IMG/VR virus record: IMGVR_UViG_3300045988_139474
Span: 64,001 to 128,000 of that record
Origin: a virus
Direction: 5' to 3' (one strand)
DNA length: 64,000 bases
Under the pieces are notes generated by a model. The model ran no database searches, was not told where the DNA came from, and worked only from the letters and a program-made list of their open reading frames with translations. The translations under genes were made by a program, and so were the position numbers. Below, in pieces: positions 9,177 through 58,606 of the stretch (the first letter of the stretch is position 1; each line of letters begins with the position of its first letter).

Positions 9177-9210
9177 ATAATATCCTAGTGTAACAAGGCA
9201 ATCGCCTTTC

Positions 9211-9248
9211 GTATATTACAAAGCACCGTGAGATGAAAAAGCGCATTT
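9211..9248 (-). promoter_or_regulatory. class-2 promoter-like motif (AAATGCGCTTTT box plus -10-like box)
   Basis: Minus-strand reading is AAATGCGCTTTTTCATCTCACGGTGCTTTGTAATATAC, upstream of nrdB. Related to the copies at 14711, 23783 and 30253. Confidence 0.4.
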
Positions 9249-9273
9249 AACGCTAAAAATTTTTAAGCTTGGG

Positions 9274-9621
9274 CTACTGGAAGTTTTCGGCTATTTCAGC
9301 GATAATCTCGTCAAGAAGCCGTTTGCGCTCTTCTAGCATGTAGTGAACAACCAAAAACTCAAAGCTCGTTAAGGATTGAATGTGAGGATTTTGAGCTTGT
9401 GTGTAGTTATCGGCTGCGGCTTCTGTCAGCCACTTCAAATGACCTACCAAATTGCCCTCTCTTAGCAACCGCGCTTTTTCTTCAGCTTCTGACTTGAAGC
9501 CGTCAAGTTCAGCCTTGAGTTTCAATCGGGCTTTAGCTTCGTGCATGGCTGCTTCTTCAAAAGCTTCACGTGCCTCAGGATTTTTACAGGCTTCGTGATA
9601 TGTCTTCAAGATTTTACACAT
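9274..9621 (-). CDS. hypothetical acidic protein, tandem paralog array member 5 (most diverged)
   Basis: The ATG at 9621 (MCKILKTYHEACKNPEAREAFEEAA...) follows AAGGAGA. Shares the PEAREAFEEAA...EA motif with its neighbours. Confidence 0.6.
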   Translation of the reverse strand: MCKILKTYHEACKNPEAREAFEEAAMHEAKARLKLKAELDGFKSEAEEKARLLREGNLVGHLKWLTEAAADNYTQAQNPHIQSLTSFEFLVVHYMLEERKRLLDEIIAEIAENFQ

Positions 9622-14691: not shown

Positions 14692-14710
14692 ATACAATCC
14701 TCAGGTGTTA

Positions 14711-14750
14711 TATGGAATACAAAGAACGAAGAGGCCGAAAAGCGCATTTC
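14711..14750 (-). promoter_or_regulatory. class-2 promoter-like motif
   Basis: Minus-strand reading is GAAATGCGCTTTTCGGCCTCTTCGTTCTTTGTATTCCATA, immediately upstream of the three-gene cluster. Confidence 0.45.
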
Positions 14751-18290: not shown

Positions 18291-18332
18291 GGTCATAATC
18301 TGTTATCGCTCAGACCAACCTTAATTTTTAAT
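18291..18332 (-). promoter_or_regulatory. class-1 early promoter-like motif
   Basis: Minus-strand reading is TTAAAAATTAAGGTTGGTCTGAGCGATAACAGATTATGACC. It starts at the stop codon of the Mre11-Rad50 gene. Confidence 0.4.
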
Positions 18333-21132
18333 TGACGCCCTCTACCGTGTAGGCACTAACATTCTTCGTCATAACAGCCTGCAATCGGCGGTCGTAGAAG
18401 TTGAAGCCAGACACGTGAGTTGATAACAGCAAGCTACCAATACGTGAGCCTTTCAGCATCTTCGCAGCTTCCTCCAAACGGTTCTCGGATAGCTCCTTCA
18501 GGCTTTCGTCAAGAATGATTAGGCCTGTTTTGGAACCAAGCTCAAACAGTTTCGTTAGGAAGAACAGGTCAGCCAATACCTTTTGACCACCTGATAGGTC
18601 GGAGTAAGGAATCAGCAAACCGTCAACCTGCATATCAACGTCAAAGTCAATCTTCAGGTCACCTTTGGCTAATTGCTTGACTGTACGGACTACAAAATTG
18701 CCTGAGGTCATGATTTCAGCAATCTTCGTAAAGACTGATTGCACGACAGCACCGTTAGAAGCAAACAAGTTCATGTACTGCTCTAGTCTTGGTAAGCCTT
18801 GAGTTGCGGTGTCCAGTTGAGCGTTCATCTCAACCAGCTTATCCCGCAGGCTTTGTAACTGTTCATACTGACGCTGGGCAAATTCGCACTCCGCAATTTG
18901 TCGGGCTAACGATTGTTGCTCAATATCCATAGCGTTCAGTCTGTCTTGAAGCTCGCCCAAGCTAGGGAATTTCACAGGGTCAGGAAGGCCGTTCAGCTGT
19001 TCTTTCAAGCTAAGGATACGCACTTCAGCACTCGTGATATCATTCCGCAGTTTGATTTGAGTCGAATATGTAGCCAATTCTTCACGCAATCGCTGATTTC
19101 GGGCTTCCTCTTCGGCAATCAATGCTTCGTATTTGGTAACTTCTTCATCAGCTTTCTTTTGAGCGTCAGCCAAAGCATTTTGCTTCTCGACAACCGCTTC
19201 TTCGGCCTGTTTAGTCTTGGTCTTGAGTTCATTCAATGTCTCTTCATGACTGTCTAAAGGTTTGCCGCAGGTCGGGCAGCTATCTTTCAAGTTAGCCTCC
19301 GATTCCTTCGCAGCTGCTACCGCCAATTGGGCGAATCTTACATCATTCGCAGCTTGGCTTATAACATTGCCTGCTTTGGTAATGTAGGACTTGTACGACG
19401 CAATCAGATTGGTCGAAGTCTCAATCATAGACTTCAGGTCATCAGCTGTATTAGCAGGCATGAAGTTAGGGTCAACATCAGCCCGCATCTTTTCCAAGAA
19501 TCCCTCATGCGACTCAATCTGAGCCTCAATCTGACTTCTGGACGATAATGCCTGAATCAGCTTAGTCAAAGTGCTTCGGTCGGCGGTAAGTTTATCAGCC
19601 TGCTGTTGCTTTTCAGCCAACTCCAAACGCTTATCAAGGTCAACCATCTGTAGGTTTTCTACCGTCTGACTTGCGATATGAATCTCACTCTCAAGCCCTT
19701 TGACGGCGGATTTCTTAGCAGACAGCTCAGCTTTCAAGGCCGTATGGAAATTGTTAATCAGGCCTAAGCCTAACATTTCGGACACAATCGCAATCCGCTC
19801 GTTGTAGCCGTAACCACTTAACAGATAAGGCGCACCCTGCTCACGGTATAGCAAGTCCATCAATCGGATGAACGGCAATTTGGCTTGAATACGCTGATTC
19901 AACTCGGTTGAGTTGTTAGCCTGTTCCTGTACGTCATTGATGAAGTACTCAACGAAGCCTGAGCCGTTGTGACCTCGTGTGATGGTGTGCTTCTCACCCT
20001 TGTAATACAGGGTCATAGACACTTCCATATCCTTACAGCCTTTGCGAATCAGATTGTTGACTGAGCGCGGTGGGCGGAATACGAAGTCAATGGCTCGCAG
20101 TAGGCTCGATTTGCCGTTACCATTCTCACCTGTAACAACCGTCAGGCCTTCTGTAAACTGATACTCAAACGATTCAATTGACCTGAAATTCTTGATACGA
20201 ATGCTAACAGGCACGAAGTCCAAGTCAGCAGGTTCAGTATTGCTTCGGTCGATATTGGGCGCATAGACGGAATGTAAATCAGACAATTCTGCTGCCTTTA
20301 CATTCTCTTCAATCACCTTGTCGATATCAAGCCCAGCAATAACTTTAGCCGTATCAGCTGAAGTCACAACTTTGGGCTTTTCAACCAAGACTGTATAAGG
20401 GTGAGTTGGGTCATAACGCTTATCGCCCTTATACATGATTTTCAGGAACTTGGTATCAGCACTTTCAGTCTTCACCCTCTTCCAAGACATGTCGTCTGTA
20501 TCCAACACGATAACTGAGCCGTCAACCGACTCACCCATGTAGTGTTGAAACGGAACATTGATTGAGTGAGCATTACCCATATCAACTTTGTTATGGATGT
20601 CACCTGCAAGAATCAAGTCAGCCACGCTAGAATCGAACTCTTGGCCGAACTTATCGTGAAGCGTGATATGCCCAACCAGAAGGTCAAGATGTTCCTTGAA
20701 GTCATAATGCGTCTGGTCAGGTCGCCAGTTACTGAAACCGATTTTACGGCCTCCGATAGTCAGCACTTGATTATCCATGTAAGTCGCTTTGTCGTACATG
20801 ATAGCATGAATGCCTGCGTCATCATAGCCCTGTTCTTGGGCTTTTGAGCCTGAATCGTGGTTGCCTGAGATGTATAGGAACTTGTCTTTGGGGAAAGCCT
20901 CAGATAACGTCTCAACCATGTAGCGGAGCGTATTGGCAACACCTGGAGTCAATACATGACGGTGAACGATGTCGCCAGCTGCTATGAAGTATTCGCAGTT
21001 GTATTCCTTCGCAATCTCAACATAACGGTGCGCTAATCGGCGGAATTGTTCCAACCGCCAGCCTTTTCCGCCTAAGTTATGGTCAGGGAAGTCATGAATA
21101 TGAATATCCCCTGTTAGAAGCAATTTAGCCAT
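18328..21132 (-). CDS. Mre11(SbcD)-Rad50(SbcC) fusion nuclease/ATPase
   Basis: 934 aa. The N-terminal calcineurin-like phosphoesterase shows GDIHIHD, AAGDIVH, SGNHDS, GHITLHD and AGDIHN. These are followed by Walker A GENGNGKSS, long coiled coils, the zinc hook CPTCGKPL, the signature LSGGQK, Walker B LIILDE and H-loop LSTH. Confidence 0.85.
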   Translation of the reverse strand: MAKLLLTGDIHIHDFPDHNLGGKGWRLEQFRRLAHRYVEIAKEYNCEYFIAAGDIVHRHVLTPGVANTLRYMVETLSEAFPKDKFLYISGNHDSGSKAQEQGYDDAGIHAIMYDKATYMDNQVLTIGGRKIGFSNWRPDQTHYDFKEHLDLLVGHITLHDKFGQEFDSSVADLILAGDIHNKVDMGNAHSINVPFQHYMGESVDGSVIVLDTDDMSWKRVKTESADTKFLKIMYKGDKRYDPTHPYTVLVEKPKVVTSADTAKVIAGLDIDKVIEENVKAAELSDLHSVYAPNIDRSNTEPADLDFVPVSIRIKNFRSIESFEYQFTEGLTVVTGENGNGKSSLLRAIDFVFRPPRSVNNLIRKGCKDMEVSMTLYYKGEKHTITRGHNGSGFVEYFINDVQEQANNSTELNQRIQAKLPFIRLMDLLYREQGAPYLLSGYGYNERIAIVSEMLGLGLINNFHTALKAELSAKKSAVKGLESEIHIASQTVENLQMVDLDKRLELAEKQQQADKLTADRSTLTKLIQALSSRSQIEAQIESHEGFLEKMRADVDPNFMPANTADDLKSMIETSTNLIASYKSYITKAGNVISQAANDVRFAQLAVAAAKESEANLKDSCPTCGKPLDSHEETLNELKTKTKQAEEAVVEKQNALADAQKKADEEVTKYEALIAEEEARNQRLREELATYSTQIKLRNDITSAEVRILSLKEQLNGLPDPVKFPSLGELQDRLNAMDIEQQSLARQIAECEFAQRQYEQLQSLRDKLVEMNAQLDTATQGLPRLEQYMNLFASNGAVVQSVFTKIAEIMTSGNFVVRTVKQLAKGDLKIDFDVDMQVDGLLIPYSDLSGGQKVLADLFFLTKLFELGSKTGLIILDESLKELSENRLEEAAKMLKGSRIGSLLLSTHVSGFNFYDRRLQAVMTKNVSAYTVEGVN

Positions 21133-23356: not shown

Positions 23357-23707
23357 TTATTCGTCAGCTTCAACAGGAGTTTCGCCTGCTTCAGTAGCAG
23401 GTTTATGAGCAGCTGGAACAGCAACAGTAATTTTGCCGTTTACTGCGTCTTTGAAAGCTTGGCCGAATTTGAAAGATGGGCGTGTAGCAGCGGCAATGGT
23501 AATACGCTCACCAGTCACAGGGTTGAAGCCTGGACGCTCTTCTTGATGGGCTGAGCCAAAAGTGCCAAAGCCACGCAATTCAACTTTTTCGCCTTTAGCA
23601 ACGGTGCCCACGATAGTGTCCAGCAGGTTGTTAACCACTTTCTCAGCGACAACTTTAGTGAAACCATTTTGTTCAGCGGTCAGGTTAATCAGGTCAGTAC
23701 GATTCAT
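23357..23707 (-). CDS. HU/IHF-family (type II) DNA-binding protein with C-terminal extension
   Basis: 116 aa. MNRTDLINLTAEQNGFTKVVAEKVVNNLLDTIVGTVAKGEKVELRGFGTFG...RPGFNPVTGERITIAA..RPSFKFGQAFKDAVN. Confidence 0.85.
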   Translation of the reverse strand: MNRTDLINLTAEQNGFTKVVAEKVVNNLLDTIVGTVAKGEKVELRGFGTFGSAHQEERPGFNPVTGERITIAAATRPSFKFGQAFKDAVNGKITVAVPAAHKPATEAGETPVEADE

Positions 23708-23782
23708 TTTGTATTTCCTTGTGAAATATCAGGCTTTTATACGCAGCCTGTTAGCGTTTTGGGCGGTATTGCCCTGGGATTC

Positions 23783-23820
23783 ATAATACACAAAGAACGA
23801 AGAAACCGAAAAGCGCATAT
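23783..23820 (-). promoter_or_regulatory. class-2 promoter-like motif
   Basis: Minus-strand reading is ATATGCGCTTTTCGGTTTCTTCGTTCTTTGTGTATTAT (TTTCGG, 17-nt spacer, TATTAT), upstream of the HU-like gene. Confidence 0.5.
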
Positions 23821-23870
23821 TTCGGAAAATATTTTTAATTTTCGGCTAATTCTTTGTTTTATATCAAAAC

Positions 23871-24881
23871 TTAGTTTGAAATGAAGCTTTTGAGCAAAGC
23901 CATAGCATGCTGATTTTCAGTATTAGCAAGCTGGGAGGCTTTCGTGAGATTACCGTCAGCTGCGGCCTTCTCAAGTGTCTCATTCAGCAATGTATTGAAG
24001 CTTTCATGAGTTGTATCCAAAGCATTACTCATCAATCTGATAACGTCTGTTGCATTAGCATCAAACATGATTGTTTCGGCTATGGTTGAATAAACTCGGT
24101 ATTCTTCACCTAACTGGTTGCCTTGGTCCAGATACATCATAGCTCGGCAGGCCGATTCGTCTAATGCAGGAACAATCCTGTTATACACATTCCGCAGGGA
24201 GCGGTATTGCGTCAGCAGTAGCAAAGCATTGATGTCCTTGATAGACGTCAGAAGAATGAAGATGTCAGGATAGTCTTGGCGCAAGTAGTACAAGAACAGC
24301 ACCCTTTGCGCGGTTGAGGTCATCTTATCAAAATGTCTGAATTTGACTTCTTGTTCCATGTTGATTCCGTTGTATTGTAGCAGCCAGTAGATGTAGTGCC
24401 TATCTCCATCAGAGTACAGGCCGTCTAAAAGCTTGTATGTGCGTATGAAGCTATACATCAATAGCCTGAGGTGAGCTGGTGTGTCTTTCATCAAGTCCTC
24501 AAACATGAAGTCAATAGCAATCTTGTTAATGCTGGATGGCTCGGAATATTCAGGAATGTCGGCCAAGACGGAATAAGAGATAGTGGCTGTTTGGAAATGT
24601 ATGCCCTCCTGCTCAATCAAGTCGTACAGGAATTCCAGTGTAAGCTCGAAGTTTTCCTCAGCCATCTTGGTCTGAACAACAGTCAAAGAGATAGTTGAAG
24701 CTGAATCCAAATCCCCGCCAGTCATCTCATAAGAGTTTTTCAGCGCACGGCTTACAAGATAAGTTGAGATGACCAACAGTCTAGGCAAATCAAGCGGTTC
24801 TTTTCCCGATAGGTTGAACTCAGCCACTAGGTCAGGCGAAGACATTGATTGATAATGGTTGACATAAAATTCCAGATTCAT
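23871..24881 (-). CDS. hypothetical protein
   Basis: 336-aa ORF; no motif recognised. Confidence 0.65.
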   Translation of the reverse strand: MNLEFYVNHYQSMSSPDLVAEFNLSGKEPLDLPRLLVISTYLVSRALKNSYEMTGGDLDSASTISLTVVQTKMAEENFELTLEFLYDLIEQEGIHFQTATISYSVLADIPEYSEPSSINKIAIDFMFEDLMKDTPAHLRLLMYSFIRTYKLLDGLYSDGDRHYIYWLLQYNGINMEQEVKFRHFDKMTSTAQRVLFLYYLRQDYPDIFILLTSIKDINALLLLTQYRSLRNVYNRIVPALDESACRAMMYLDQGNQLGEEYRVYSTIAETIMFDANATDVIRLMSNALDTTHESFNTLLNETLEKAAADGNLTKASQLANTENQHAMALLKSFISN

Positions 24882-26764: not shown

Positions 26765-28239
26765 ATGTCCTTAGTTTGTTGTGTTTTCAAGATGAAGTGG
26801 TCTTTCAACATCTGCATTTTATGCCTCATCTGACGGTTCATTACGCCGTTATGCTTATCATACAGCAAGGCGCATGTTAACTCGGTCGTCCTAGCTGCAC
26901 GGCCTACAGGCTGTACTAAGCCTTTGAACGATACGCTAGTGATGGGGATAACGCTGTTGATGTTAGGAATATCCAAGCCCTCAGTACCCACTTGGTTTGC
27001 TATCAACACTCTAAACGCTTTTTGTGCAGCCAAAGCTTTCAGCTGCTCCAATGTCATAGATACCTCGCCAACAGGCGATAACTGAACTTGGGCGGACAAA
27101 AAGACTGTCCGAATGCCCATAAGGTTCAAAGCATTACAGATAGCAGTACCAGTCTCAATTGAAGTCGTCTCAGGTATAAACACGATACCGTCTGGCATAT
27201 CCCCAATAATCCTAGCTAACGTCAATGGGAAGTTAGGGTGCTTCAGGGTACAAGCTCCGATGAACTGAGGTGTTGGAACATCTTTATCAAGGTTTTCGGC
27301 CACTACTTGCTCATACTCAGCCTTGCTGATAATTTCCGCATTGTAGCTTACCAAATTGATAGGCACTTGTAGCTTCACATGGATAAGAGATTCCCCGAAA
27401 TATTCCAGCATTGCGAAGTTTTGCTGAGTCAGCTGTTTTCTCAATACTAGGTCAGGTGTCACCTCATGTCCAGACTTAGCGTCAGCTGAGCCAGTGAAGC
27501 CATACAGGAAGTCTGGATTACACGCCTTGATAACCTGTTTCCAAGTATCAGCTGAGGCGTGGTGAGCCTCGTCAGCGATTAGAAGGCCGACATTCGACAA
27601 TTCATCCCAGCGTTCAGGCTTGGTAGCAGCTGACTTGACGAAGCCTGTTGGGTGAATCAATTTCACTCGGCTGGTATCAACGTCATACTGCTTCAATCGC
27701 AGTTCCAATTCCTTCAGCAGGTTCTTGGTAAATGAAATCAGCACAACGTCTTTGTCGTGCTGTTCCAAGTATGATTCTACCAGCGCGGAAATGATAGTTG
27801 CTTTACCATAACCAACAGCCAGAGACACAATGCCTGAACTCTTCTCTTTCAATAGCGCAGCCGTCTGTAACTGAACTTGGTCGTATCCCATGTCCTTCTT
27901 AGGATGAGACGCAAAGATGCCCAGCCAGCGTTGTGTTATCTCAATTCCTTTGTCGTCAGTCTTTTCACCAACAACCTTATAGGGCATGCCGTTAGCAGAC
28001 AACACATATTTCAGGGTGCTCAATAGGCCTTTGAAGACATACAGGCATTTATCCTTCAATCTGCTGTCGCGCTTGAGGTAAGCTACATCTTCATCTGCGA
28101 CAGTCCATTTCTTGAGGTGATACAGATACCGTCTGTTTTGTTCCCTCTGGGTGAATATACGCTCGAAGCTATTATATTCCCTGTCTGTCTCAAACTCGAT
28201 TCTAAGCTGGCCGTTTTTCAGACACTCAACTGTTATCAT
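26761..28239 (-). CDS. SF2 DEAH-box helicase (UvsW / type III res-like)
   Basis: 492 aa. Motif I AVGYGKAT, motif II IADEAHHA, motif V-like GTEGLDIPN, motif VI QPVGRAAR. Confidence 0.75.
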   Translation of the reverse strand: MITVECLKNGQLRIEFETDREYNSFERIFTQREQNRRYLYHLKKWTVADEDVAYLKRDSRLKDKCLYVFKGLLSTLKYVLSANGMPYKVVGEKTDDKGIEITQRWLGIFASHPKKDMGYDQVQLQTAALLKEKSSGIVSLAVGYGKATIISALVESYLEQHDKDVVLISFTKNLLKELELRLKQYDVDTSRVKLIHPTGFVKSAATKPERWDELSNVGLLIADEAHHASADTWKQVIKACNPDFLYGFTGSADAKSGHEVTPDLVLRKQLTQQNFAMLEYFGESLIHVKLQVPINLVSYNAEIISKAEYEQVVAENLDKDVPTPQFIGACTLKHPNFPLTLARIIGDMPDGIVFIPETTSIETGTAICNALNLMGIRTVFLSAQVQLSPVGEVSMTLEQLKALAAQKAFRVLIANQVGTEGLDIPNINSVIPITSVSFKGLVQPVGRAARTTELTCALLYDKHNGVMNRQMRHKMQMLKDHFILKTQQTKDI

Positions 28240-30080
28240 AGCATGTCTCCATATGTGATATCATACTTGTGTTCTCGGTTCTTCGTCAGGCTGCGAATCA
28301 GGCCTTTCTGTACCTTACCTTCAACGCGGAAACCATCATACTCATATGATGCGATTTTCAAGCCTTCGGCTCGTAAGCCCTCGATTGTATGATGGATGAA
28401 ATCCAATTCTTTGCCTTGGCAGTACCATACCAACAGTTTGCTATGAGAATTGAAGATTTCAGAATCCTCTGTAATCACACTTACACCGTTGAAATACATC
28501 TTCTTGCCTGTAAAGCCTGTTACAACTTGACCGTTTTCAAAGATAGCCTCTTGGATGAACTTAGCTCGTTGAGTCGGAGCATCTTGACCCCAAACACGTG
28601 TTCTGCGTTTGATGTAGTCAATTGCGTGAGTATGGATTGCTTCGGATACTCTGCCCCAGTAGTTCACGATACTGTCCCAAACTCTGTCGGCTTGTTCTGC
28701 GGAGTCAGTTGCTTCCCAGATGCGGGTGTAAACTGATGACGTGGCTTTATCTTCCAAGCTTGCGCCCATGAAGATTGCATTGGTACAGTCTTTAAACAAC
28801 TGATACTCCACACCGCACAAAGCTGCGATAACACGTTTGTCTTCCAAGTAGTCATCAATCAGCTCAGTTACTGTTCTGCCTCGTTGGTTGTCTTTAACAC
28901 TAACGAATTGGCCATTTTCATCAAACTTGCGTTTCACTTGATAGGCTCGGAAAGCGGTTTTTCTCAACAGCATTGGGTAGGCTGATTTCATGTCCACTTT
29001 GGTTGCTTTAGCAAACAGGTGAGATTTCAGACGGCCTTTGAGTAAGGTCACACTTGAATTGTAAACTCGTCCATAAGCAGTAACAGTCACATCGTCTGCG
29101 TTGAAGACTTGCAATTTGGTAACATCCGCCTTGACTTTAACAGTCAACGGATTCACTTTCAGACGTTTGATAGCATCAATATCGCCCAAGTTGATATCAG
29201 GAATGCTGTTATCAATCTCAATCTCAGTAAATTGGCCTAAGGCTTCTACCAATTCTTGTTGTTTTCTGAAGCCCTCAGCAGTCAGTACAACACCGTCTTT
29301 GATTTGGCTCAGATGGAACTCGGGTTTGCGGTTTGCATACTCAGTTTCCATATAAACAACTTCAAGATTGTTTGCTTTCCAGATAGCTTTTCGGCTTCTT
29401 GGAGATTCATACACGCGTAAGACTTCTTGAATTGCTTTCCACATGAACTCTACAGGCAGAGCAAGCGCAGCAGGCTTAGCCTCGAATTTCTTGTTGTAGC
29501 GTTCAGTCAAGATGTCTGCATAATATGGGCTGATATGGTCTTCAGCATAAGTGCCCAGGAACAGCGCCAATGAACCCGCAGCCCATTTACAATTGCGGGA
29601 TACCTCATCAGTCGGAGACTGACCGCGACCAGTCAGTACAACACCATCTTCGTCAATCAGGGTTGCACCGTTCAGGCCACCAGCTTGAGCTTGTTGGTTA
29701 GCTCGGTGACCGAAAGATACCAGCCAGTGTTCTTTGTCGAACTGGGCTTGAGTGATTACTCGTTTCAGGCCGTCTATCGTCAAATTGGCCAGGAGTACAG
29801 ACAGAGGTGTTTTTGAGTTCAATTTCAGGGTTTTCACACCTTGTTTGATTGCGGATTCAGGCGTGTCCGCATAAACAACTTGAAAATCTGTTCTTGTATC
29901 AATGTAGCCTTGGATTGTCTCACCCAGAGTCACTTTCACTCTACGCATTATCGATTGAGGTAGCATGTTAACCAAGTCAACAATGCTAAACGCAGTATTT
30001 TGAGCCGTTGCGTCGTCAGGTCGGGCGGTGACCTTTGCGGCTTTGAATTCAACATAATTGTTGTGTTTAGCGGTTGACAT
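28236..30080 (-). CDS. divergent family-A-like DNA polymerase candidate (no recognisable exonuclease domain)
   Basis: 614 aa. Motif-A-like KVDMKSAYPMLL (D363), motif-B-like FKDCTNAIFMGAS (K430), then QGKELDF and motif-C-like SYEYDGFRVEG (D582). Spacings of 67 and 152 aa fit Pol A rather than Pol B. Confidence 0.45.
   Translation of the reverse strand: MSTAKHNNYVEFKAAKVTARPDDATAQNTAFSIVDLVNMLPQSIMRRVKVTLGETIQGYIDTRTDFQVVYADTPESAIKQGVKTLKLNSKTPLSVLLANLTIDGLKRVITQAQFDKEHWLVSFGHRANQQAQAGGLNGATLIDEDGVVLTGRGQSPTDEVSRNCKWAAGSLALFLGTYAEDHISPYYADILTERYNKKFEAKPAALALPVEFMWKAIQEVLRVYESPRSRKAIWKANNLEVVYMETEYANRKPEFHLSQIKDGVVLTAEGFRKQQELVEALGQFTEIEIDNSIPDINLGDIDAIKRLKVNPLTVKVKADVTKLQVFNADDVTVTAYGRVYNSSVTLLKGRLKSHLFAKATKVDMKSAYPMLLRKTAFRAYQVKRKFDENGQFVSVKDNQRGRTVTELIDDYLEDKRVIAALCGVEYQLFKDCTNAIFMGASLEDKATSSVYTRIWEATDSAEQADRVWDSIVNYWGRVSEAIHTHAIDYIKRRTRVWGQDAPTQRAKFIQEAIFENGQVVTGFTGKKMYFNGVSVITEDSEIFNSHSKLLVWYCQGKELDFIHHTIEGLRAEGLKIASYEYDGFRVEGKVQKGLIRSLTKNREHKYDITYGDML
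29026..29037 (-). repeat. perfect AG-type DNA uptake sequence (AGGCCGTCTGAA)
   Basis: The plus strand reads TTCAGACGGCCT, inside the polymerase-like CDS. Confidence 0.8.
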
Positions 30081-30252
30081 GATTGTCCTTTCACGATTGA
30101 GAGGTTATTATATCGAAATTTGCTAGCAAAATCGAATGTGCCTCGCCACTGGAATATTGTCTAAGCCAAGCTCCTAGACAAAATTGTAAGTCATTGATTC
30201 TGTTCAGAAGAAAGTTTCAGGCCTTTCGTCTTTCTTCTCGCTTGGGGTGTTC

Positions 30253-30290
30253 ACAATACACAAAGAACGGTAGGATGTAAAAGCGCATTT
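30253..30290 (-). promoter_or_regulatory. class-2 promoter-like motif
   Basis: Minus-strand reading is AAATGCGCTTTTACATCCTACCGTTCTTTGTGTATTGT (TTTACA, 17-nt spacer, TATTGT). First promoter of the minus-strand arm. Confidence 0.55.
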
Positions 30291-30359
30291 TCTTTAAAAT
30301 AATTTCGACTTTTTCGATAACTCGTTGTTTTTACTAAGAAGAAAGTTTAAAATATTTTC

Positions 30360-30810
30360 GATTTTCTTTCCCTGCTGGGGATTAAGGTCAGGGATTGAGG
30401 GAAATTTCAAGCTTCAATCTTCAGGCCTCAAGCTTTCGGCTCGATTCCTCTTGTGATTGAGGGTTATACAGGCTCAAGCCTCGCTCAGGCAGAAGTTTCA
30501 TGTTTCAACAGGTTTGAGGAGGATTCATGACTGATTCCTTCTTATATTTCCACTCTTGCTTGACCACATAGCAGAGCCTTTCATGTTTCAAGTCTCATGT
30601 TTGATTGAGGTAGCAGGGTAATGAATGATTGTTTCATCTCTAGCCTGCTACACCACACAAGCAGGCAGACGGTTTAAGCTAGGATTTCACTCAACATCAG
30701 GGTTGAGAATTGAAGATTTCAGCCTCATGGCTTGAGATTTAGGATTCATGATTGTTGAGGGATTGAGAGGGTTTATGATTCATGTTTCAACACTCAATAG
30801 TAGATTATAA
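30360..30810. repeat. degenerate short-repeat field (GATTGAGG, TTCATGATTG, CATGTTTCAA, AGGATTCATGATTGTT)
   Basis: Multiple near-identical 8-16-mers read by eye; no ORF of 60 aa or more on either strand. Confidence 0.7.
30643..30666 (+). other. conserved hairpin H1 (GCCTGCT, CA-rich loop, AGCAGGC)
   Basis: 7-bp stem followed by AGACGGTTT. Homologous hairpins lie at 31197 and 34792, with a compensatory C-G to T-A change. Confidence 0.6.
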
Positions 30811-30948
30811 GATATATAATACCTGAGGTTGATATTGTATCACATCTATGACATTGAAATCGTATATTTCGTGACTAACTTCTTATTTTCGCAAGGGAAT
30901 TTTTAGCCAAAATCCTGTATTTATGTACGGAATCCCAATAGTTACAAG
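30811..30948 (+). repeat. conserved ~145-nt non-coding element, copy A
   Basis: GATATATAATACC..ATTGTATCACATCTATGACATTGAAATCG..TTTCGTG..GAATTTTTAGCCAAAATCCTGTATTTATGTACGGAATCC. Confidence 0.85.
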
Positions 30949-31196
30949 ATTCAGCATTCAGCTTCTGTATCCCTGTCAACAGATTTCACCAGTGTTGATT
31001 GATTTCGCCTTTTAGCTTTCTATCCTCTGCTTGACACTCACCCAGACGGTCGGATTTCAGTCAGTCATTACTCATGCTTCAGCAGGGTTGAGTAGGATTC
31101 ATGATTGTTACCCCTTCTTCTGCTGACTCAGGCTACAGGCCGTCTAGTTTCATTGCTTCAGCAGTGTTGATAAAGACTGATTCTGTTCCATCTCTA

Positions 31197-31219
31197 GCTT
31201 GCTACGCTCACACGCAAGC
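31197..31219 (+). other. conserved hairpin H2 (GCTTGC, CA-rich loop, GCAAGC)
   Basis: Same flanks as H1 (TCTCTAGC...CAGAGGGTTT). Confidence 0.55.
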
Positions 31220-31358
31220 AGAGGGTTTCTTATCTCATGTTTCAGCATCATGATTCTCAAATTTCACGATTTCATTCTCATGGCTGATTGAGGATTGAGA
31301 GTGAATGACTGATTCCTGTTCAACAGCAGATATTAAGTCGGTATCGTTTTCTAATTTA

Positions 31359-31375
31359 ATATATATATATATATA
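31359..31375. repeat. (AT)8 dinucleotide microsatellite at the AT-rich box of copy B
   Basis: ATATATATATATATATA; the other copies have only 2-3 AT units here. Confidence 0.9.
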
Positions 31376-31505
31376 ACCTGTAGTTTGTTATTGTATCACA
31401 TCTATGACATTGAAATCGTTTATTTCGTGGATAACTTCCTAATCCGCCAAAAGAATTTTTAGCCAAAATCCTGTATTTATGTTCCGATTCCTGTACCCGC
31501 CAAGA
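31359..31505 (+). repeat. conserved ~145-nt non-coding element, copy B
   Basis: Aligns with copies A and C-F; about 230 nt upstream of the first plus-strand gene. Confidence 0.85.
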
Positions 31506-31733
31506 CCAGCATAAAAATATCGAAAAATCTTTCCCAATGTTGACTGCCTAAAGACGGTATCCCCTCTGTAAGCGCGGCAAGGCCAATTAACGTAATTTTT
31601 TGGTAACACCCTAATATCTATTGATGTATCGCCCTACACGATTTCGCAGAGCGTCGCTGCTAAGTCGTTGATTCTTCACGGGAATGATACAAATGGCCGT
31701 CAGTATCGGCACTATTTACAGGAAGAACTGAAA

Positions 31734-32199: not shown

Positions 32200-32430
32200 A
32201 TGACCCCGATTAAAAGACAAGCGTGTAATTTGACTGTTGGAAAAGCCGTAACCCTGCCTTCAGGCCGCAGGGCTATCGTGCTTGAGATTCAGACAGAAAG
32301 CATTTCATTCTGCTATGCTGATGAGGCTGAGCTGTTCTCATTTGAGCTATCCCGAAACAAGTGCATTGAACTGTTCGGCAATACCCCCGAATATCGTGAC
32401 TACTGGACGCCAGCCAATCAAAGAATCTAG
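32200..32430 (+). CDS. hypothetical protein
   Basis: 76-aa ORF between the candidate TerS and TerL. Confidence 0.5.
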   Translation: MTPIKRQACNLTVGKAVTLPSGRRAIVLEIQTESISFCYADEAELFSFELSRNKCIELFGNTPEYRDYWTPANQRI

Positions 32431-32447
32431 GCCGAAAGGACTGACTC

Positions 32448-34250
32448 ATGAGCCAATCAAGCGAGATTGTAGCATTAGATAACAAGGTGCTATTTGAGAT
32501 TGCCAAGAAAGCAGGCTTTAAAGAGGAAGTCCCAACGATTGAGCAATTTATTGATGACCCTTACTATCTTGGCAAAGTGTTGGGTGACGGATTGTATCCT
32601 ATTTGGCGAGAAGCAGCCAAGAAGCTGTACCCCAACCCTTACCATTCACCATATGATGAAGTCATTCTATCGGGTGCTATCGGTTTGGGTAAATCGACTA
32701 TGGCACTGCTCATCACTTTCTATGACCTTTGCCGAGTCATGTGCTTGGAAGACCCGCATAAGCATTATGACCTAATTTCCTCAACAGTCATCACATTCCC
32801 AATGATGAATGCAACCAAGTCCCTTGCGTCGAAGGTGCTCTGGTCGCAATTCGTGGATTGGGTAGAAGCAAGCCCATTCTTCAAACACCGTGTTGATACC
32901 CGCAAGGGTGCTAAGACCTTCTTCAAAGGCAACATTGATGTTTCGACAGGCTCACGCGGCAGTGACTACTTAGGTCAAGCAACCATCGGTGCAATCTTTT
33001 CGGAGATTAACGACATGACGGTTGTAGCTGGCCAAGCAGAGGACAACCTTGACACAATCTCCACTCGTAGGGATTCCCGATTTGGCGGTAAAGGTAAGGA
33101 AATTCTAGGACACATCATCCTTGATTCCTCTAACAAGGGCAATCGCTCATTCATTGATGCGCGCCTTGAGGAAAAGGAAAAGAAAGGCTCAACAGGACAT
33201 ATCGTCTTCAGCTTCTCACACTGGGAAGCAAAATGGCACTTGGGAGGATACTCAGGCAAATTCTTCCAAGTGTACGCAGGCGATGAGTTTATTGACCCTT
33301 TCATCATTGATGATTCCAATTCCGACATGCTTCCAAACTTGAAGCCTAATCGTATTGTCGATGTCCCTGTTGAGCATAGGGAACAGTTTGAATTCAACAT
33401 CATCAAATCATTACGTGACTTGGCTGGTGTTTCAACTTTCGGCACGGCTTCCTTTATCTCATCCAATGAGGTTCTCAATCGCACGTTCATTCGGCCTAAT
33501 CCTGTTACCAAGGATTTGATAGTGCTAGACTTCTTCAACGACCAGTCATTGCGGGATTACATCGACATCGGGTTGTTGAAGGCGTTATGCGACAAGCCCC
33601 GATTCATCCATATTGACTTAGGCTTGACTACTGACTCAACAGGTATTGCTTGCTCATACATTGACAGGTACGAAGAGGTGAAAGCTTATGACCCTGTCAA
33701 GGGCACTCAGACGGTAGTTGTTGAGCCAGTATTCGTCAATGAATGGCTGATGGAGATACGGAGCATACCAGGACAGGAAGTCCCAATCCACAAAATCAAG
33801 AAATTCATTCTTGATGCAAGGGCTGAGGGCTATCCAATTGCTTGCGTTTCAACAGACGGCTTCCAATCAACCAACCTGCGGCAGGATTTACTGTATGCTG
33901 GTTTTGAAGTGAAGCTGATTTCAGTTGACCGAACCAAAGACCCTTACTATCATTTGCGCTCAGCGATTCTCGAAGGCCATGCAACAGCTGTCGCCTCAGA
34001 AAAGCTCAAGCGTGAAATCAGGGAATTGGAAGAGCATGATGACAAGTTTGACCACCCACCACCTCCAGCAGGCTCGAAAGACTTGTCTGACGCATTATGC
34101 GGTTCAATCTGGTCAGCCAAAGAGAACATGCAGCTAGCAGACAAGACGAAAGTGACCAAGCAACAGGCTGATACATTGCTCAAAGTGTTGGAAAAATCCG
34201 CTCCGAAAGAACAGGCATTCAAAGCTAAATTGATGGGCGGTTACAATTAG
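32448..34250 (+). CDS. terL: terminase large subunit
   Basis: 600 aa. Walker A GAIGLGKST, then IGAIFSEIND, and C-terminal RNaseH-like nuclease acidic residues (FIHIDLGLTTDSTG, VSTDGFQS). Confidence 0.8.
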   Translation: MSQSSEIVALDNKVLFEIAKKAGFKEEVPTIEQFIDDPYYLGKVLGDGLYPIWREAAKKLYPNPYHSPYDEVILSGAIGLGKSTMALLITFYDLCRVMCLEDPHKHYDLISSTVITFPMMNATKSLASKVLWSQFVDWVEASPFFKHRVDTRKGAKTFFKGNIDVSTGSRGSDYLGQATIGAIFSEINDMTVVAGQAEDNLDTISTRRDSRFGGKGKEILGHIILDSSNKGNRSFIDARLEEKEKKGSTGHIVFSFSHWEAKWHLGGYSGKFFQVYAGDEFIDPFIIDDSNSDMLPNLKPNRIVDVPVEHREQFEFNIIKSLRDLAGVSTFGTASFISSNEVLNRTFIRPNPVTKDLIVLDFFNDQSLRDYIDIGLLKALCDKPRFIHIDLGLTTDSTGIACSYIDRYEEVKAYDPVKGTQTVVVEPVFVNEWLMEIRSIPGQEVPIHKIKKFILDARAEGYPIACVSTDGFQSTNLRQDLLYAGFEVKLISVDRTKDPYYHLRSAILEGHATAVASEKLKREIRELEEHDDKFDHPPPPAGSKDLSDALCGSIWSAKENMQLADKTKVTKQQADTLLKVLEKSAPKEQAFKAKLMGGYN

Positions 34251-34328
34251 CTCAAAATCAGCTACCTCACCAATTTCAGGTCAGGTATTGCTTGTTGAGA
34301 ACAGGGCGTTATCAGCTGGAATTTACCA

Positions 34329-34350
34329 TCGCTGGGGGATATACCAGCGA
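34329..34350 (+). terminator. hairpin downstream of terL (terminator candidate)
   Basis: TCGCTGG, 8-nt loop, CCAGCGA, followed by GTTATTT. The T-tract is weak. Confidence 0.3.
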
Positions 34351-34560
34351 GTTATTTCAGTCATCAGAATCCTTGTTTTTGATTGATTTTAAGATTTCAG
34401 TCTCATGGCTGTTAAATCCCTTGTTTTCAGTCTTCAGGCCTCCTGATTTCTTGATTCTTGCTTTCGGGATTCTATCCTGACTGCTTGATTCTTCTCTTCG
34501 GGATTCCGTGAGGGCTGTTTTCAAGGATTCCAGTTTCATGGATTGTTAGTTTTCTTTATT

Positions 34561-34702
34561 TAATATATAGTATAACTTGTGTTGTGTATATTGTATCACA
34601 TCTATGACATTGGAATTGGATATTTCGTGGATAAGTTATTATTTTCGCAAGGGAATTTTTAGCCAAAATCTTGGACTTATGTTCGAGATTCTGTCTAGGC
34701 CA
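34561..34702 (+). repeat. conserved ~145-nt non-coding element, copy C
   Basis: TAATATATAGTATAACTTGTG..ATTGTATCACATCTATGACATTGGAATTGG..GAATTTTTAGCCAAAATC.. Confidence 0.85.
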
Positions 34703-34791
34703 GGATTCAGATTTCAACTCTTGTATCGCAGCCTCAAGTTTCATCAGTCAATGATTGATTTCAGGCTTCCAGCAGTCTGTTTTCAACTCTA

Positions 34792-34816
34792 GCTTGCTCA
34801 CACTCACAACGCAAGC
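34792..34816 (+). other. conserved hairpin H3 (GCTTGC, CA-rich loop, GCAAGC)
   Basis: Followed by AGACGGTTTCTTGTTTTG. Confidence 0.55.
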
Positions 34817-34958
34817 AGACGGTTTCTTGTTTTGATTTCAGGCTTCAGGCCGTCTGATTTCAAGGATTCCATGCTCATGGCTGATCGATAAGGATGAATG
34901 ACTGCTCTCAAGTCTCAGGATTGATAGAAATGAAAGCAGGGTTGTTCTTTTTCGTCTA

Positions 34959-35103
34959 TTAGTAATACTCTTGTGTGGTGTGTATATTGTGTATCACATC
35001 TATGAGTTTGGAATTGGCTATTTCGCGGATAAGCTTCTGATTCTCCAGCACTATTTTTCGCCAAAATCCTGTCTTTATGTTCGGAATCCTGTTCCCTACA
35101 AGA
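34959..35103 (+). repeat. conserved ~145-nt non-coding element, copy D
   Basis: Ends about 40 nt upstream of the portal start codon. Confidence 0.85.
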
Positions 35104-35144
35104 TTCATCTTCCATTAACCTGACATCTGCAAGGAATAAGCCCT

Positions 35145-40083: not shown

Positions 40084-40090
40084 TGTAAGC

Positions 40091-40132
40091 AGCCGTCTGG
40101 ACGAAGCCTCAAAAACTCCGTTCAGACGGCCT
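40091..40132 (+). terminator. inverted DUS pair hairpin after the capsid gene
   Basis: AGCCGTCTGGA ... TTCAGACGGCCT. The downstream arm (40121..40132) is a perfect AG-DUS on the minus strand. There is no T-tract. Confidence 0.5.
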
Positions 40133-40160
40133 AACTTAAAACTTGTGGGAGAGTGTAAAC

Positions 40161-44565: not shown

Positions 44566-44602
44566 GCCATTCGCAGAATTTGTCTGCGGCTAATCTCTTG
44601 AG

Positions 44603-44707
44603 AGGTTAGCACAACTGCTTACAACTATGTTAACCCAACCGACCTTTTGTCCCTTTTCATCGTGTTAATCAGTTTGTCTAGGCAGTTGTGCTAACCTTTT
44701 ATTTTTC
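44603..44707 (+). terminator. long-range 16-bp hairpin plus T-tract (terminator or structured RNA)
   Basis: AGGTTAGCACAACTGC (44603-44618) pairs perfectly with GCAGTTGTGCTAACCT (44682-44697). The loop is 63 nt and is followed by TTTTATTTTT. Confidence 0.5.
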
Positions 44708-50616: not shown

Positions 50617-50760
50617 TATTAATATATAACTTGTGGTGTGTTATATATTGTATCACATCTATGAGTTTGGAATTGGACTTTTCGTGGATAATCCTTTGAT
50701 TCACCAAAAGAATTTTTAGCCAAAATCCTGTATTTATGTTCGGAATCCTGTAGCCGCCAG
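50617..50760 (+). repeat. conserved ~145-nt non-coding element, copy E (solo)
   Basis: TTATTAATATATAACTTGTGG..ATTGTATCACATCTATGAGTTTGGAATTGG..GAATTTTTAGCCAAAATCCTGTATTTATGTTCGGAATCCTGTAGCC. Ends 25 nt before the 50786 start. Confidence 0.85.
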
Positions 50761-50785
50761 TATCCTTACCAACGAACGGAAGCAT

Positions 50786-58454: not shown

Positions 58455-58461
58455 TTGCTTT

Positions 58462-58606
58462 CTTGGCCTAGTCAGAATCTCGAACATAAAGACAGGATTT
58501 TGGCTAAAAATTCTTCTGCTGAAACAATTGCTTACCAACGAAATAGCCAATTCCAATGTCATAGATGTGATACAATATCAACACTACAGATATTATATTA
58601 CTAATA
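58462..58606 (-). repeat. conserved ~145-nt non-coding element, copy F (inverted orientation)
   Basis: The reverse complement aligns with copies A-E: TAATATAATATCTGTAG..ATTGTATCACATCTATGACATTGGAATTGGCTATTTCG..GAATTTTTAGCCAAAATCCTGTCTTTATGTTCGAGATTC. Confidence 0.85.

What the first reader, a model, noticed from the sequence alone, without database searches (positions are those of the whole stretch)
30081..31733. 1.65-kb repeat-saturated divergent control region with no ORF of 60 aa or more
Between the last minus-strand gene (starts 30080) and the first plus-strand gene (31734), the six-frame track shows no ORF of 60 aa or more on either strand, which is very unusual for a phage. The region holds a sigma70-like promoter pointing left (30253-30290) and a 9-bp inverted repeat AGAAGAAAG/CTTTCTTCT (30206-30238). 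It also holds two tandem ~550-bp composite units. Each unit consists of a field of degenerate short repeats (GATTGAGG, TTCATGATTG, CATGTTTCAA, AGGATTCATGATTGTT at about 30525, 30740 and 31095), a conserved hairpin, an AT-rich box, and one copy of the 145-nt element. The iteron-like arrays at the strand-switch point make this a candidate replication origin and/or the main early-late regulatory switch.
Basis: seen in the sequence. Interest (0 to 1): 0.65.

Follow-up and report, generated by a model that had tools for sequence, protein, structure and literature searches.

The report
Tandem repeat cassettes in phage control region
The 1.65-kb gene-free gap between the replication and virion gene blocks of an uncultured, probably Neisseria-infecting phage is built from a repeated non-coding cassette that occurs at least 14 times per genome, so it looks like a transcription-control junction rather than a unique replication origin.

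Summary
Window 30081-31733 has no ORF of 60 aa or more. It holds a leftward sigma70-like promoter, a 9-bp inverted repeat and two tandem ~556-bp units (hairpin, AT-rich box, ~140-nt core).

The units are not special to this locus. The core occurs six times in the window and at least 14 times in a related 142-kb contig. Most copies point the same way as the next gene and lie 22-260 nt before its start. A second two-unit array fills the terminase-portal spacer. Unit number in the homologous gap is 1, 2 or 3 among close relatives.

The core is absent from 185,579 bacterial species genomes, from cultured phages and from Rfam. It shows no conserved RNA fold. The spacer hairpin does covary.

The short "iteron-like" words are 7-10 bp, lie on one strand and are irregularly spaced. 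They are decayed sub-repeats of the unit.

The replication arm has its own repeated upstream block (ATGCGCTTTT-N10-GTKCTTTGT, four copies).

Best reading: a divergent junction of two arm-specific regulatory cassette families, enlarged by unequal crossing-over, resembling the promoter-terminator cassettes (PeSLs) of T4-like phages. Function is inferred, not shown. The origin idea is unsupported but not excluded.

The parts
30206..30238 (-). 9-bp inverted repeat AGAAGAAAG / CTTTCTTCT. It would form a stem-loop near the 5' end of the leftward transcript.
   Evidence: Read directly. It lies just downstream, on the minus strand, of the predicted -10 at 30258-30253. It is only partly conserved in L001.
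30236..30350 (-). Leftward promoter-like block specific to the replication arm. It contains ATGCGCTTTT-N10-GTTCTTTGT (30260-30288), -35 TTTACA and -10 TATTGT, with an A/T-rich stretch upstream. A partial ~131-bp direct repeat links 30187-30217 with 30318-30348.
   Evidence: (D5, D12). There are four exact pattern matches in the window (30260, 23790, 14719, 9218), all on the minus strand and all in intergenic gaps, against 0 expected.
30381..30810 (+). Spacer of unit 1. It is a T/G-rich field of one-stranded short words (GATTGAGG, CATGTTTCA, GGATTCATGA, CTCATGGCT), with a decayed hairpin copy at about 30551-30580.
30639..30669 (+). Conserved hairpin of unit 1: TCT-(bulged A)-GCCTGCT, CA-rich loop ACACCACACA, then AGCAGGC-AGA.
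   Evidence: Over 32 distinct copies, 93.4% of cells are paired, 3 pairs show compensatory changes (20 cells), and 0 of 500 shuffles reach this.
30805..30951 (+). AT-rich box (TTATAAGATATATAAT) plus core copy c1. The core contains the invariant TATCACATCTATGA and the block ATTTTTAGCCAAAATCCTGTATTTATGT.
30952..31365 (+). Spacer of unit 2, homologous to the unit 1 spacer at 77% identity overall.
31193..31222 (+). Conserved hairpin of unit 2: TCT-(bulged A)-GCTTGC, loop, then GCAAGC-AGA. Relative to unit 1 the C-G pair is replaced by T-A.
31357..31506 (+). AT-rich box with a (TA) run, plus core copy c2.
31507..31733 (+). Conserved 227-nt leader between the last core and the 149-aa gene. It contains a small hairpin that may covary (GCAG..CTGC versus GCAC..GTGC).
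   Evidence: alignment of 8 relatives; 95% identity to L001.
34251..35144 (+). Second two-unit array, in the TerL-portal spacer. Cores c3 (34568-34707) and c4 (34963-35105), hairpin at 34788-34819.
   Evidence: The relative L001 has one unit here, and the junction falls inside the core.
50618..50764 (+). Solitary core c5. It fills the gap between two tail-tube-like genes, 4 nt after a stop codon and 22 nt before the next start codon.
58460..58601 (-). Solitary core c6 in reverse orientation, between the baseplate hub gene and the gp25-like gene. Its AT box lies 30 nt before the gp25-like start codon.
   Evidence: The same orientation is kept in relatives L080 and L021.
23767..23878 (-). Second full copy of the replication-arm upstream block, in front of an HU-family gene. 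Shorter copies lie at 14703-14749 and 9207-9276.

Best explanation
The gap is the head-to-head junction of the phage's two transcription arms. It is built from two arm-specific families of regulatory cassettes.

Left third: one copy of the replication-arm upstream block. This is ATGCGCTTTT-N10-GTTCTTTGT followed by an AT-rich -10. It resembles a sigma70 or T4 middle-type promoter and would drive the 614-aa gene and the helicase genes leftwards.

Right two thirds: two tandem copies of the virion-arm cassette. Each has a spacer with a covarying hairpin, then an 18-nt A/T-only box, then a ~125-140-nt strongly conserved core.

Proposed working:
- The AT box acts as a -10-type entry or melting site for RNA polymerase. 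No conserved -35 is present, so a phage factor is probably needed.
- The core is then either the shared 5' leader of rightward transcripts or the DNA site where a phage factor binds.
- The upstream hairpin folds in the plus-strand transcript as a weak terminator or 3'-end stabiliser that insulates the cassette.
- The kilobase size comes from unequal homologous recombination between cores. This makes and removes tandem units, and their spacers decay into the short 'iteron-like' words.

Shown: the anatomy, the dispersal, the orientation bias, the copy-number changes and the hairpin covariation.
Inferred: promoter activity, direction of transcription, timing and factor binding.
For: 1. Dispersal. 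There are six core copies in the window and at least 14 in the 141.8-kb contig ODNI01000015.1.
2. Position. Most of the ~75 hits tabulated point the same way as the next gene, and the last copy of an array ends 22-260 nt before the start codon. Examples are the portal gene at 40 nt, a tail-tube gene at 22 nt and a giant tail protein.
3. Arm specificity. Cores occur only to the right of 30080. The ATGCGCTTTT block occurs only to the left, four exact matches on the minus strand against 0 expected.
4. Unit number varies at orthologous sites: 1, 2 or 3 units in this gap, 1 versus 2 in the TerL-portal spacer with the junction inside the core, and 3, 4 or 5 after a 276-aa gene.
5. Conservation is blockwise. 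Invariant 14-18-mers sit next to variable stretches, and the A/T-only box lies at -36 to -19 from the core anchor.
6. The hairpin covaries. It shows three U-G cells and no A-C cells at the varying pairs when read on the plus strand. It sits about 75-135 nt upstream of the next AT box.
7. The core is not a structured RNA, not in Rfam, not coding, and not a host repeat or prophage.
8. Composite terminator/promoter cassettes that mediate indels are documented in T4-like phages (PMC4122927).
Against: - No transcript data exist.
- Sigma70 scoring of the AT box is equally good in both directions (8.47 versus 8.46, shuffled 7.78). This set of 96 sequences also includes about 20 chance anchor matches.
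- Anchored on the core, the box shows selection for A/T content rather than for one hexamer, and there is no conserved -35.
- Some copies are antisense to both flanking genes: c6, L076 1723, and a two-unit array at L065 9176-9696.
- Other probable operon starts in the virion arm (40143, 44720) have no core.
- The hairpin is not followed by a clean T run.
- No sigma factor or RNA polymerase gene was recognised among the ~46 window proteins scanned.
- Tandem promoters separated by 400-550 nt of non-coding DNA have no obvious benefit.
Confidence: 0.42

Rival explanations
1. Arrays of non-coding RNA genes. Each unit would be transcribed from its AT box into a ~400-550-nt U/G-rich RNA containing the conserved core and ending at or near the covarying hairpin. 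The RNAs would act in trans, for example as a sponge or decoy for a host or phage RNA-binding protein or nuclease.
For: - There are tandem ORF-free units, up to five in a row.
- Word usage is strongly one-stranded.
- The hairpin has compensatory changes and U-G pairs on the plus strand.
- The recurrent SD-like AGGAT(T/A)CATG and GGA-containing words were seen by eye.
Against: - The core has no conserved secondary structure.
- Whole units fold no better than shuffles (z -1.28 and -0.11).
- There is no Rfam match.
- Solitary cores abut start codons like leaders.
- There is no clean terminator.
Confidence: 0.15
2. Replication origin or origins. The AT box would be a DNA-unwinding element and the core (or the short words) would bind an initiator. 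This could be a single origin at the strand-switch point, or a multi-origin system comparable to T4's oriA to oriG with transcript-primed initiation.
For: - An A/T-only 18-mer lies next to a strongly conserved block.
- AT-rich inverted repeats surround a G/T loop in many copies (mean z -1.0 over 68 copies).
- The region adjoins the helicase genes and an uncharacterised 614-aa gene.
- T4-type phages do use several promoter-linked origins (general knowledge).
Against: - The elements are not unique. There are at least 14 per genome, all in or beside the virion arm and none inside the replication arm of the window.
- There are no long, phased iterons.
- Unit number is variable.
- No initiator domain is found in the neighbouring protein, which exists only in this clade.
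- There is no skew inflection.
- DnaA-box-like GTGGATAA is present in only some cores (by eye).
Confidence: 0.12
3. Largely selfish or neutral repeated DNA. This would be an interspersed repeat that spreads and amplifies by recombination or gene conversion, tolerated in intergenic gaps. Its main consequence would be genome plasticity, not a biochemical function.
For: - There is copy-number polymorphism with junctions inside cores.
- Core variants are shuffled in a mosaic, cassette-like way among loci and genomes.
- Both orientations occur.
- A fragment of a gene's 5' end is duplicated inside a long spacer.
- Assemblies break at the repeats.
Against: - Invariant 14-18-nt blocks persist across 70 or more distinct copies while neighbouring positions vary, which implies purifying selection.
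- At least one unit is retained at this locus in every relative examined.
- There are no terminal inverted repeats and no sign of a target-site duplication by eye.
- There are no copies in the replication arm.
Confidence: 0.18
4. Dispersed DNA-binding sites for a phage structural or architectural protein, for example the phage HU-family protein, a partition or condensation factor, or terminase. They would act independently of orientation in DNA compaction or packaging.
For: - The phage encodes an HU-family protein.
- Cores occur in both orientations.
- One array lies just upstream of the small gene that precedes terL.
- In Bacillus phage SPO1, whose DNA carries modified thymine, the HU-like protein TF1 binds specific sites (general knowledge).
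Against: - No IHF/HU consensus is conserved (by eye).
- Orientation is strongly biased.
- 125-140 nt is large for a simple binding site.
- There is no direct evidence.
Confidence: 0.08

Closest known systems
PeSL / PmSL composite terminator-promoter cassettes of T4-like myoviruses (Arbiol et al. 2010, PMC2839356; Comeau et al. 2014, PMC4122927)
   Same: - They are lineage-specific, well-conserved intergenic cassettes combining a stem-loop with a promoter-like box.
- They occur in many dispersed copies.
- They sit at insertion, deletion and duplication junctions between close relatives.
- A separate Mot-box-type class exists. The minus-arm block here, ATGCGCTTTT followed by TATTAT, resembles that idea.
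   Different: - PeSLs are short and carry near-consensus sigma70 early promoters.
- PeSLs lie mostly in hyperplastic early regions between ORFan genes and are rare in structural modules.
- Here the unit is 140 nt (solitary) to 450-550 nt and has a long conserved core with no counterpart in PeSLs.
- It has no conserved -35.
- It sits in the virion arm and forms ORF-free tandem arrays of 2-5 units.
Iteron-type origins (lambda ori, P1 oriR, iteron plasmids)
   Same: There is an AT-rich stretch beside directly repeated sequence, and the region is close to replication genes.
   Different: - Iterons are 17-22 bp and regularly spaced, form a single cluster, and are usually in or beside the initiator gene.
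- Here the words are 7-10 bp and irregularly spaced.
- They are part of a larger unit that is repeated across the genome.
T4 oriF/oriG (middle promoter plus downstream unwinding element, R-loop primed)
   Same: The logic is promoter-like box plus AT-rich element, and several sites per genome are possible.
   Different: - T4 has about five origins without a shared 125-nt core.
- Here there are at least 14 copies, and the AT box lies upstream of the conserved block.
- There are no replication data.
JUMPStart/ops leader elements of long bacterial operons
   Same: A conserved non-coding sequence is repeated in the 5' leaders of several long operons, in a fixed orientation, and is thought to recruit an elongation factor.
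   Different: - ops is 8-12 nt within a 39-nt element.
- There are no tandem arrays or reverse copies.
- No RfaH-like gene is known here.
Correia repeat-enclosed elements (miniature transposable elements) and intergenic mosaic elements (NIMEs) of Neisseria, the likely host genus
   Same: They are intergenic repeats of 100-150 nt that can carry promoters and sit next to DNA-uptake sequences. The spacers here are rich in near-matches to the uptake sequence, such as AGGCCGTCTGAT.
   Different: - Correia elements have 26-bp terminal inverted repeats and a TA target duplication.
- No terminal inverted repeats were found here.
- The core is absent from 185,579 bacterial species genomes.

Membership tests
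Iteron-type replication origin | Three or more direct repeats of about 17-22 bp with regular, helically phased spacing | tested here: not met
   The enriched words are 7-10 bp and their spacings run from 7 to 525 nt with no period. The only long repeats are the 556-bp units.
Iteron-type replication origin | Adjacent AT-rich unwinding element | tested here: met
   An A/T-only 18-mer precedes each core, including the (TA)8.5 run at 31359-31375.
Iteron-type replication origin | Single locus in the genome, in or next to the initiator gene | tested here: not met
   The same units occur at 34251-35144 and at other loci in relatives. The adjacent 614-aa protein has no recognisable domain and only clade-restricted homologues.
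Iteron-type replication origin | Strand-composition (GC skew) switch at the site | tested here: inconclusive
   Cumulative GC skew flattens near 30 kb but shows no V-shaped minimum. AT skew changes sign together with the coding strand. Skew is a weak guide in phages.
Iteron-type replication origin | Replication initiates there | not testable with these tools
   This needs marker-frequency or 2D-gel data from infected cells.
PeSL-type composite terminator/promoter cassette | Stem-loop placed just upstream of a promoter-like box in one conserved cassette | tested here: inconclusive
   A covarying hairpin lies about 75-135 nt upstream of the AT box in arrays. Solitary cores c5 and c6 lack it. The hairpin has no clean T tract.
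PeSL-type composite terminator/promoter cassette | Recognisable sigma70-type -35 and -10 with 17-bp spacing | tested here: not met
   There is no conserved -35, and the AT box scores equally in both directions. For the separate minus-arm block, a -35/-10 pair is found.
PeSL-type composite terminator/promoter cassette | Many dispersed intergenic copies within one phage lineage | tested here: met
   There are 6 in the window and at least 14 in ODNI01000015.1. They occur only in this clade.
PeSL-type composite terminator/promoter cassette | Copies coincide with indel or rearrangement junctions between close relatives | tested here: met
   There are 1, 2 or 3 units at this locus, 1 versus 2 in the TerL-portal spacer with the junction inside the core, and 3-5 units after the 276-aa gene.
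PeSL-type composite terminator/promoter cassette | Promoter activity demonstrated or early-class timing | not testable with these tools
   No transcript data are available for this uncultured phage.
Miniature inverted-repeat transposable element (for example Correia) | Terminal inverted repeats and target-site duplication | tested here: not met
   The inverted-repeat search on c4, c5 and c6 found only the internal AT-rich palindrome. No duplicated flank was seen by eye.
Structured non-coding RNA family | Conserved secondary structure supported by covariation, or an Rfam match | tested here: not met
   For the core, RNAalifold gives about -1.4 kcal/mol on 26 copies with no supported helices. 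There is no Rfam hit. Units fold like shuffles. Only the 10-pair spacer hairpin covaries.

The most novel reading that the evidence does not exclude
The units could be a previously undescribed class of cis- or trans-acting element in phages with hypermodified thymine. One version is a family of tandemly amplified, promoter-bearing non-coding RNA genes. The other is a set of dispersed DNA sites (multi-origin or architectural) marked by an AT-rich cruciform-prone box plus a 125-nt recognition core. Either way, this roughly 150-kb lytic phage would devote an estimated few percent of its genome to them.
Probability: 0.25. Interest if true: 0.7.

Novelty: new variant of a known kind. Interest (0 to 1): 0.48.

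Why it matters
Lytic phages rarely keep kilobases of non-coding DNA. Here one clade of uncultured oral phages keeps at least one unit at this junction in every relative examined. These phages belong to the RP13/YerA41-like group, whose cultured members carry hypermodified thymidine. They are probably Neisseria phages.

The clade spreads the same cassette to more than a dozen sites. It has a second, different cassette family for the other arm.

If the cassettes are class-specific promoters or leaders, they give a direct handle on how temporal gene control works in a phage group where no transcription factors were recognised in this window. They would also extend the idea of recombination-prone regulatory cassettes from T4 early regions to structural modules and tandem arrays.

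If the cassettes are RNA genes or origins, they would be a new element type.

Practically, the repeats explain why assemblies of these phages break at these points.

Tried and rejected
- Rfam at gathering thresholds and at E up to 1: nothing relevant. tRNA/tmRNA scan: none.
- blastn of the region against 50,697 phage records: no match.
- Two core patterns against 185,579 bacterial species genomes: 0 hits, so it is not a host repeat or prophage.
- RNA structure of the core (RNAalifold on 6 and 26 copies, plus my own covariation scan): no supported helices. Whole-unit folding on both strands is not better than shuffles.
- A candidate helix AATCCTGT/ACAGGATT seen by eye did not hold across the 70 variants.
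- Sigma70 scoring to fix the direction of the AT-box promoter gave equal scores in both directions. Anchored information content shows A/T richness, not a hexamer.
- Analogous gaps in more distant relatives were sought. E. coli phage IME392 has ORFs in its gap, Ralstonia RP13 is densely coding there, and L004 (TerL 65% identical) is densely coding. The arrays are therefore clade-specific.
- I considered that the giant 3484-aa gene after a core might be an N4-like virion RNA polymerase, which would make the hairpins N4-type promoters. It matches tail and virion proteins instead.
- I looked for a phage sigma factor or RNA polymerase among about 46 window proteins: none recognised.
- The 614-aa neighbour has no Pfam, PHROG or PDB match, and only 84-95% identical homologues.
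- DnaA-box-like (GTGGATAA) and IHF-like matches in the core were seen by eye but are not conserved among copies.
- A micro-ORF starting at the invariant ATG of the core has no Shine-Dalgarno sequence, and its length and frame are not conserved (by eye).
- The ends of the TnpB insertion in relatives were compared with the hairpin and core: no resemblance.
- The contig end of L001 inside the region was considered as a genome terminus. It is better explained by assembly breaks at repeats, since many contigs start or end in a core.
Full report
**Context**

The window is a tailed phage with two divergent gene arms.
- Left of 30080, on the minus strand, lie replication and nucleotide-metabolism genes. 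These are an SF2 helicase, a DnaB-like helicase, RusA, an HU-family protein, a fused SbcCD, topoisomerase II and ribonucleotide reductase.
- Right of 31734, on the plus strand, lie packaging and virion genes. These are TerL, a probable portal (by position), a prohead protease, a Gp23-type capsid protein, tail sheath, tail tube and baseplate proteins.
- The closest cultured TerL proteins are Ralstonia phage RP13 (60%) and E. coli phage IME392 (57%). These belong to the RP13/YerA41-like group with hypermodified thymidine (PMC12686479).
- The 12-nt AG-type Neisseria DNA-uptake sequence occurs 5 times exactly and 6 times with one mismatch, against 0.26 expected.
- Some relatives come from Human Microbiome Project-type samples, judging from the sample numbering. 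The host is therefore probably an oral Neisseria.
- Related contigs reach 146-151 kb.

**Checking the observation**

- The gap 30081-31733 has no ORF above 56 aa. This is what random sequence of this composition often gives (16% of shuffles), so the region simply looks non-coding.
- The two tandem units are real: 553-574-bp register, 77% identity overall, and 85% over the best 110 nt.
- The short words are enriched 10-fold or more and occur on one strand only. They are 7-10 bp long and irregularly spaced.

**The units are not specific to this locus**

- A search of the window with the region found the ~140-nt core six times. The copies are at 30811, 31366, 34568, 34963 and 50618 (plus strand) and 58460-58601 (minus strand).
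- The TerL-portal spacer (34251-35144) is a second two-unit array with the same hairpin and the same word fields.
- Exact-pattern scans found the core only in a narrow clade of uncultured phage contigs. One 141.8-kb contig holds at least 14 copies.
- Two core patterns gave no hit in 185,579 bacterial species genomes. The region has no blastn match among 50,697 phage records.
- More distant relatives (L004, IME392, RP13) have ordinary coding DNA at the corresponding place.

**Arrangement and dynamics**

- Of the roughly 75 hits tabulated, most point the same way as the next gene. The last copy of an array ends 22-260 nt before its start codon.
- Exceptions are antisense to both neighbours. These are c6 (conserved in two relatives), a second locus (L076 1723) and a two-unit array (L065 9176-9696). 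In each of these cases the AT box faces the start of the gene downstream in the local direction of transcription.
- Homologues of the adjacent 614-aa protein are 84-95% identical. In the contigs that carry them, the orthologous gap is 1.58-2.12 kb, has no credible gene (only two tiny calls of 72 and 42 aa in one contig) and contains 2 or 3 units. A further related contig (L078) has one unit.
- The TerL-portal spacer has two units in the window and one in L001, and the alignment junction falls inside the core.
- Another site has 3, 4 or 5 units in different genomes.
- One long spacer contains a duplicated fragment of the 5' end of the gene that follows the array.
- Many contigs begin or end inside a core. 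This explains why L001 stops inside the region.
- Together these points indicate unequal homologous recombination between cores.

**Anatomy of the unit**

- Anchored on the invariant ATCACATCTATGA, the upstream profile has three parts. An 18-nt A/T-only box lies at -36 to -19, a G/T-rich 10-mer follows, and then comes ATATTGT. There is no conserved -35.
- In many copies the box is complementary to the start of the core (mean z -1.0 over 68 copies).
- Inside the core, invariant blocks alternate with stretches that occur in a few shuffled variants.
- No RNA secondary structure is conserved in the core. Whole units fold like shuffled sequence. Rfam finds nothing.
- The spacer hairpin is a genuine selected structure. 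It reads TCT, a bulged A or T, GCYTGNN, an 8-13-nt CA-rich loop, and then the complementary arm ending in AGA.
- In 32 distinct hairpin copies, 93.4% of cells pair. Three pairs carry compensatory changes in 20 cells. No shuffle reaches this (0 of 500), and slid controls pair at 27-48%.
- The three wobble cells are U-G on the core strand, which weakly favours folding on that strand.
- The hairpin lies about 75-135 nt upstream of the next AT box and is followed by only a patchy T-rich stretch.

**The other arm has its own cassette**

The block recurs at 23767-23878, in front of the HU-like gene.
- It also recurs in shorter form at 14703-14749 and 9207-9276.
- The pattern ATGCGCTTTT-N10-GTKCTTTGT matches four times, all on the minus strand and all intergenic, against 0 expected. 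An AT-rich -10 follows.
- This resembles in concept the Mot-box middle promoters and 'PmSL' cassettes of T4-like phages (PMC4122927).

**Interpretation**

- Each arm carries its own conserved upstream element, and the two meet head to head in this gap. The most economical reading is therefore a divergent transcription-control junction built from arm-specific regulatory cassettes.
- The virion-arm cassette has been tandemly duplicated, and its spacers have decayed into the short words.
- I give this 0.42. No transcript data exist, the AT box gives no directional promoter signal, reverse-oriented copies exist, and other probable operon starts lack a core.
- The rivals are non-coding RNA gene arrays (0.15), a largely selfish recombination-driven repeat (0.18), one or several replication origins (0.12) and architectural or packaging sites (0.08).
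- The origin idea loses its main argument, which was the uniqueness of 'iterons' at the strand switch. It is not excluded.

**Novelty**

- The closest described systems are the PeSL/PmSL terminator-promoter cassettes of T4-like phages.
- The present elements share dispersal, lineage specificity and association with indels.
- They differ in size, in having a long conserved core, in lacking a -35, in lying in the structural arm, and in forming ORF-free tandem arrays.
- I therefore class the finding as a new variant of a known kind, of moderate interest. It would be more interesting if the units prove to be RNA genes or dispersed DNA sites.

Noticed in passing
window 29026, 40121, 44074, 48053, 54622 (exact); 40090-40135: The AG-type Neisseria DNA-uptake sequence AGGCCGTCTGAA occurs 5 times exactly and 6 times with one mismatch, against 0.26 expected. 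An inverted pair directly after the capsid gene looks like a Neisseria-style terminator. This points to an oral Neisseria host.
   Followed up: partly
window 32448-34250 (TerL) and the whole window: TerL is closest to Ralstonia phage RP13 (60%) and E. coli phage IME392 (57%). These belong to the RP13/YerA41-like group reported to carry hypermodified thymidine. Related contigs are 146-151 kb.
   Followed up: partly
window 23357-23707 (-): The phage encodes an HU/IHF-family DNA-binding protein (PF00216, E = 7e-28). Its gene is preceded by a full copy of the replication-arm promoter block. It recalls TF1 of Bacillus phage SPO1, which has modified thymine.
   Followed up: no
L002 1794-3380 (also L003 and ODNI01000015.1); empty site at window 32419-32433: Some close relatives carry a 1.59-kb insertion between the 76-aa gene and terL. 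It encodes a 478-aa TnpB-like protein (OrfB_IS605 plus a Cas12f-like TNB domain). The window lacks it.
   Followed up: partly
window 28236-30080 (-): The 614-aa protein next to the gap heads the helicase operon. It has no Pfam, PHROG or PDB match, and only 84-95% identical homologues in 5.8 billion proteins, so it is an ORFan restricted to this clade.
   Followed up: partly
window 9218-9246, 14719-14747, 23790-23818, 30260-30288 (-): ATGCGCTTTT-N10-GTKCTTTGT followed by an AT-rich -10 occurs four times, only on the minus strand in intergenic gaps of the replication arm. It is probably an early or middle promoter class.
   Followed up: partly
window 31507-31733: The 227-nt leader before the 149-aa gene is highly conserved among eight relatives. 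It contains a small hairpin with a possible compensatory change (GCAG..CTGC versus GCAC..GTGC) and the hairpin GATAC..GTATC. It could be a regulatory leader or a packaging (pac) site.
   Followed up: no
window 44590-44700: A 15-bp inverted repeat (GGTTAGCACAACTGC / GCAGTTGTGCTAACC) with a ~75-nt loop is followed by TTTTATTTTT, directly upstream of the gene at 44720.
   Followed up: no
window 34441-34506: A 34-nt tandem repeat (1.9 copies, 87% matches) lies in the TerL-portal spacer, upstream of core c3.
   Followed up: no
window 18328-21132 (-): SbcD-like (Metallophos) and SbcC-like (SMC_N/AAA) domains are fused in one 934-aa protein.
   Followed up: no
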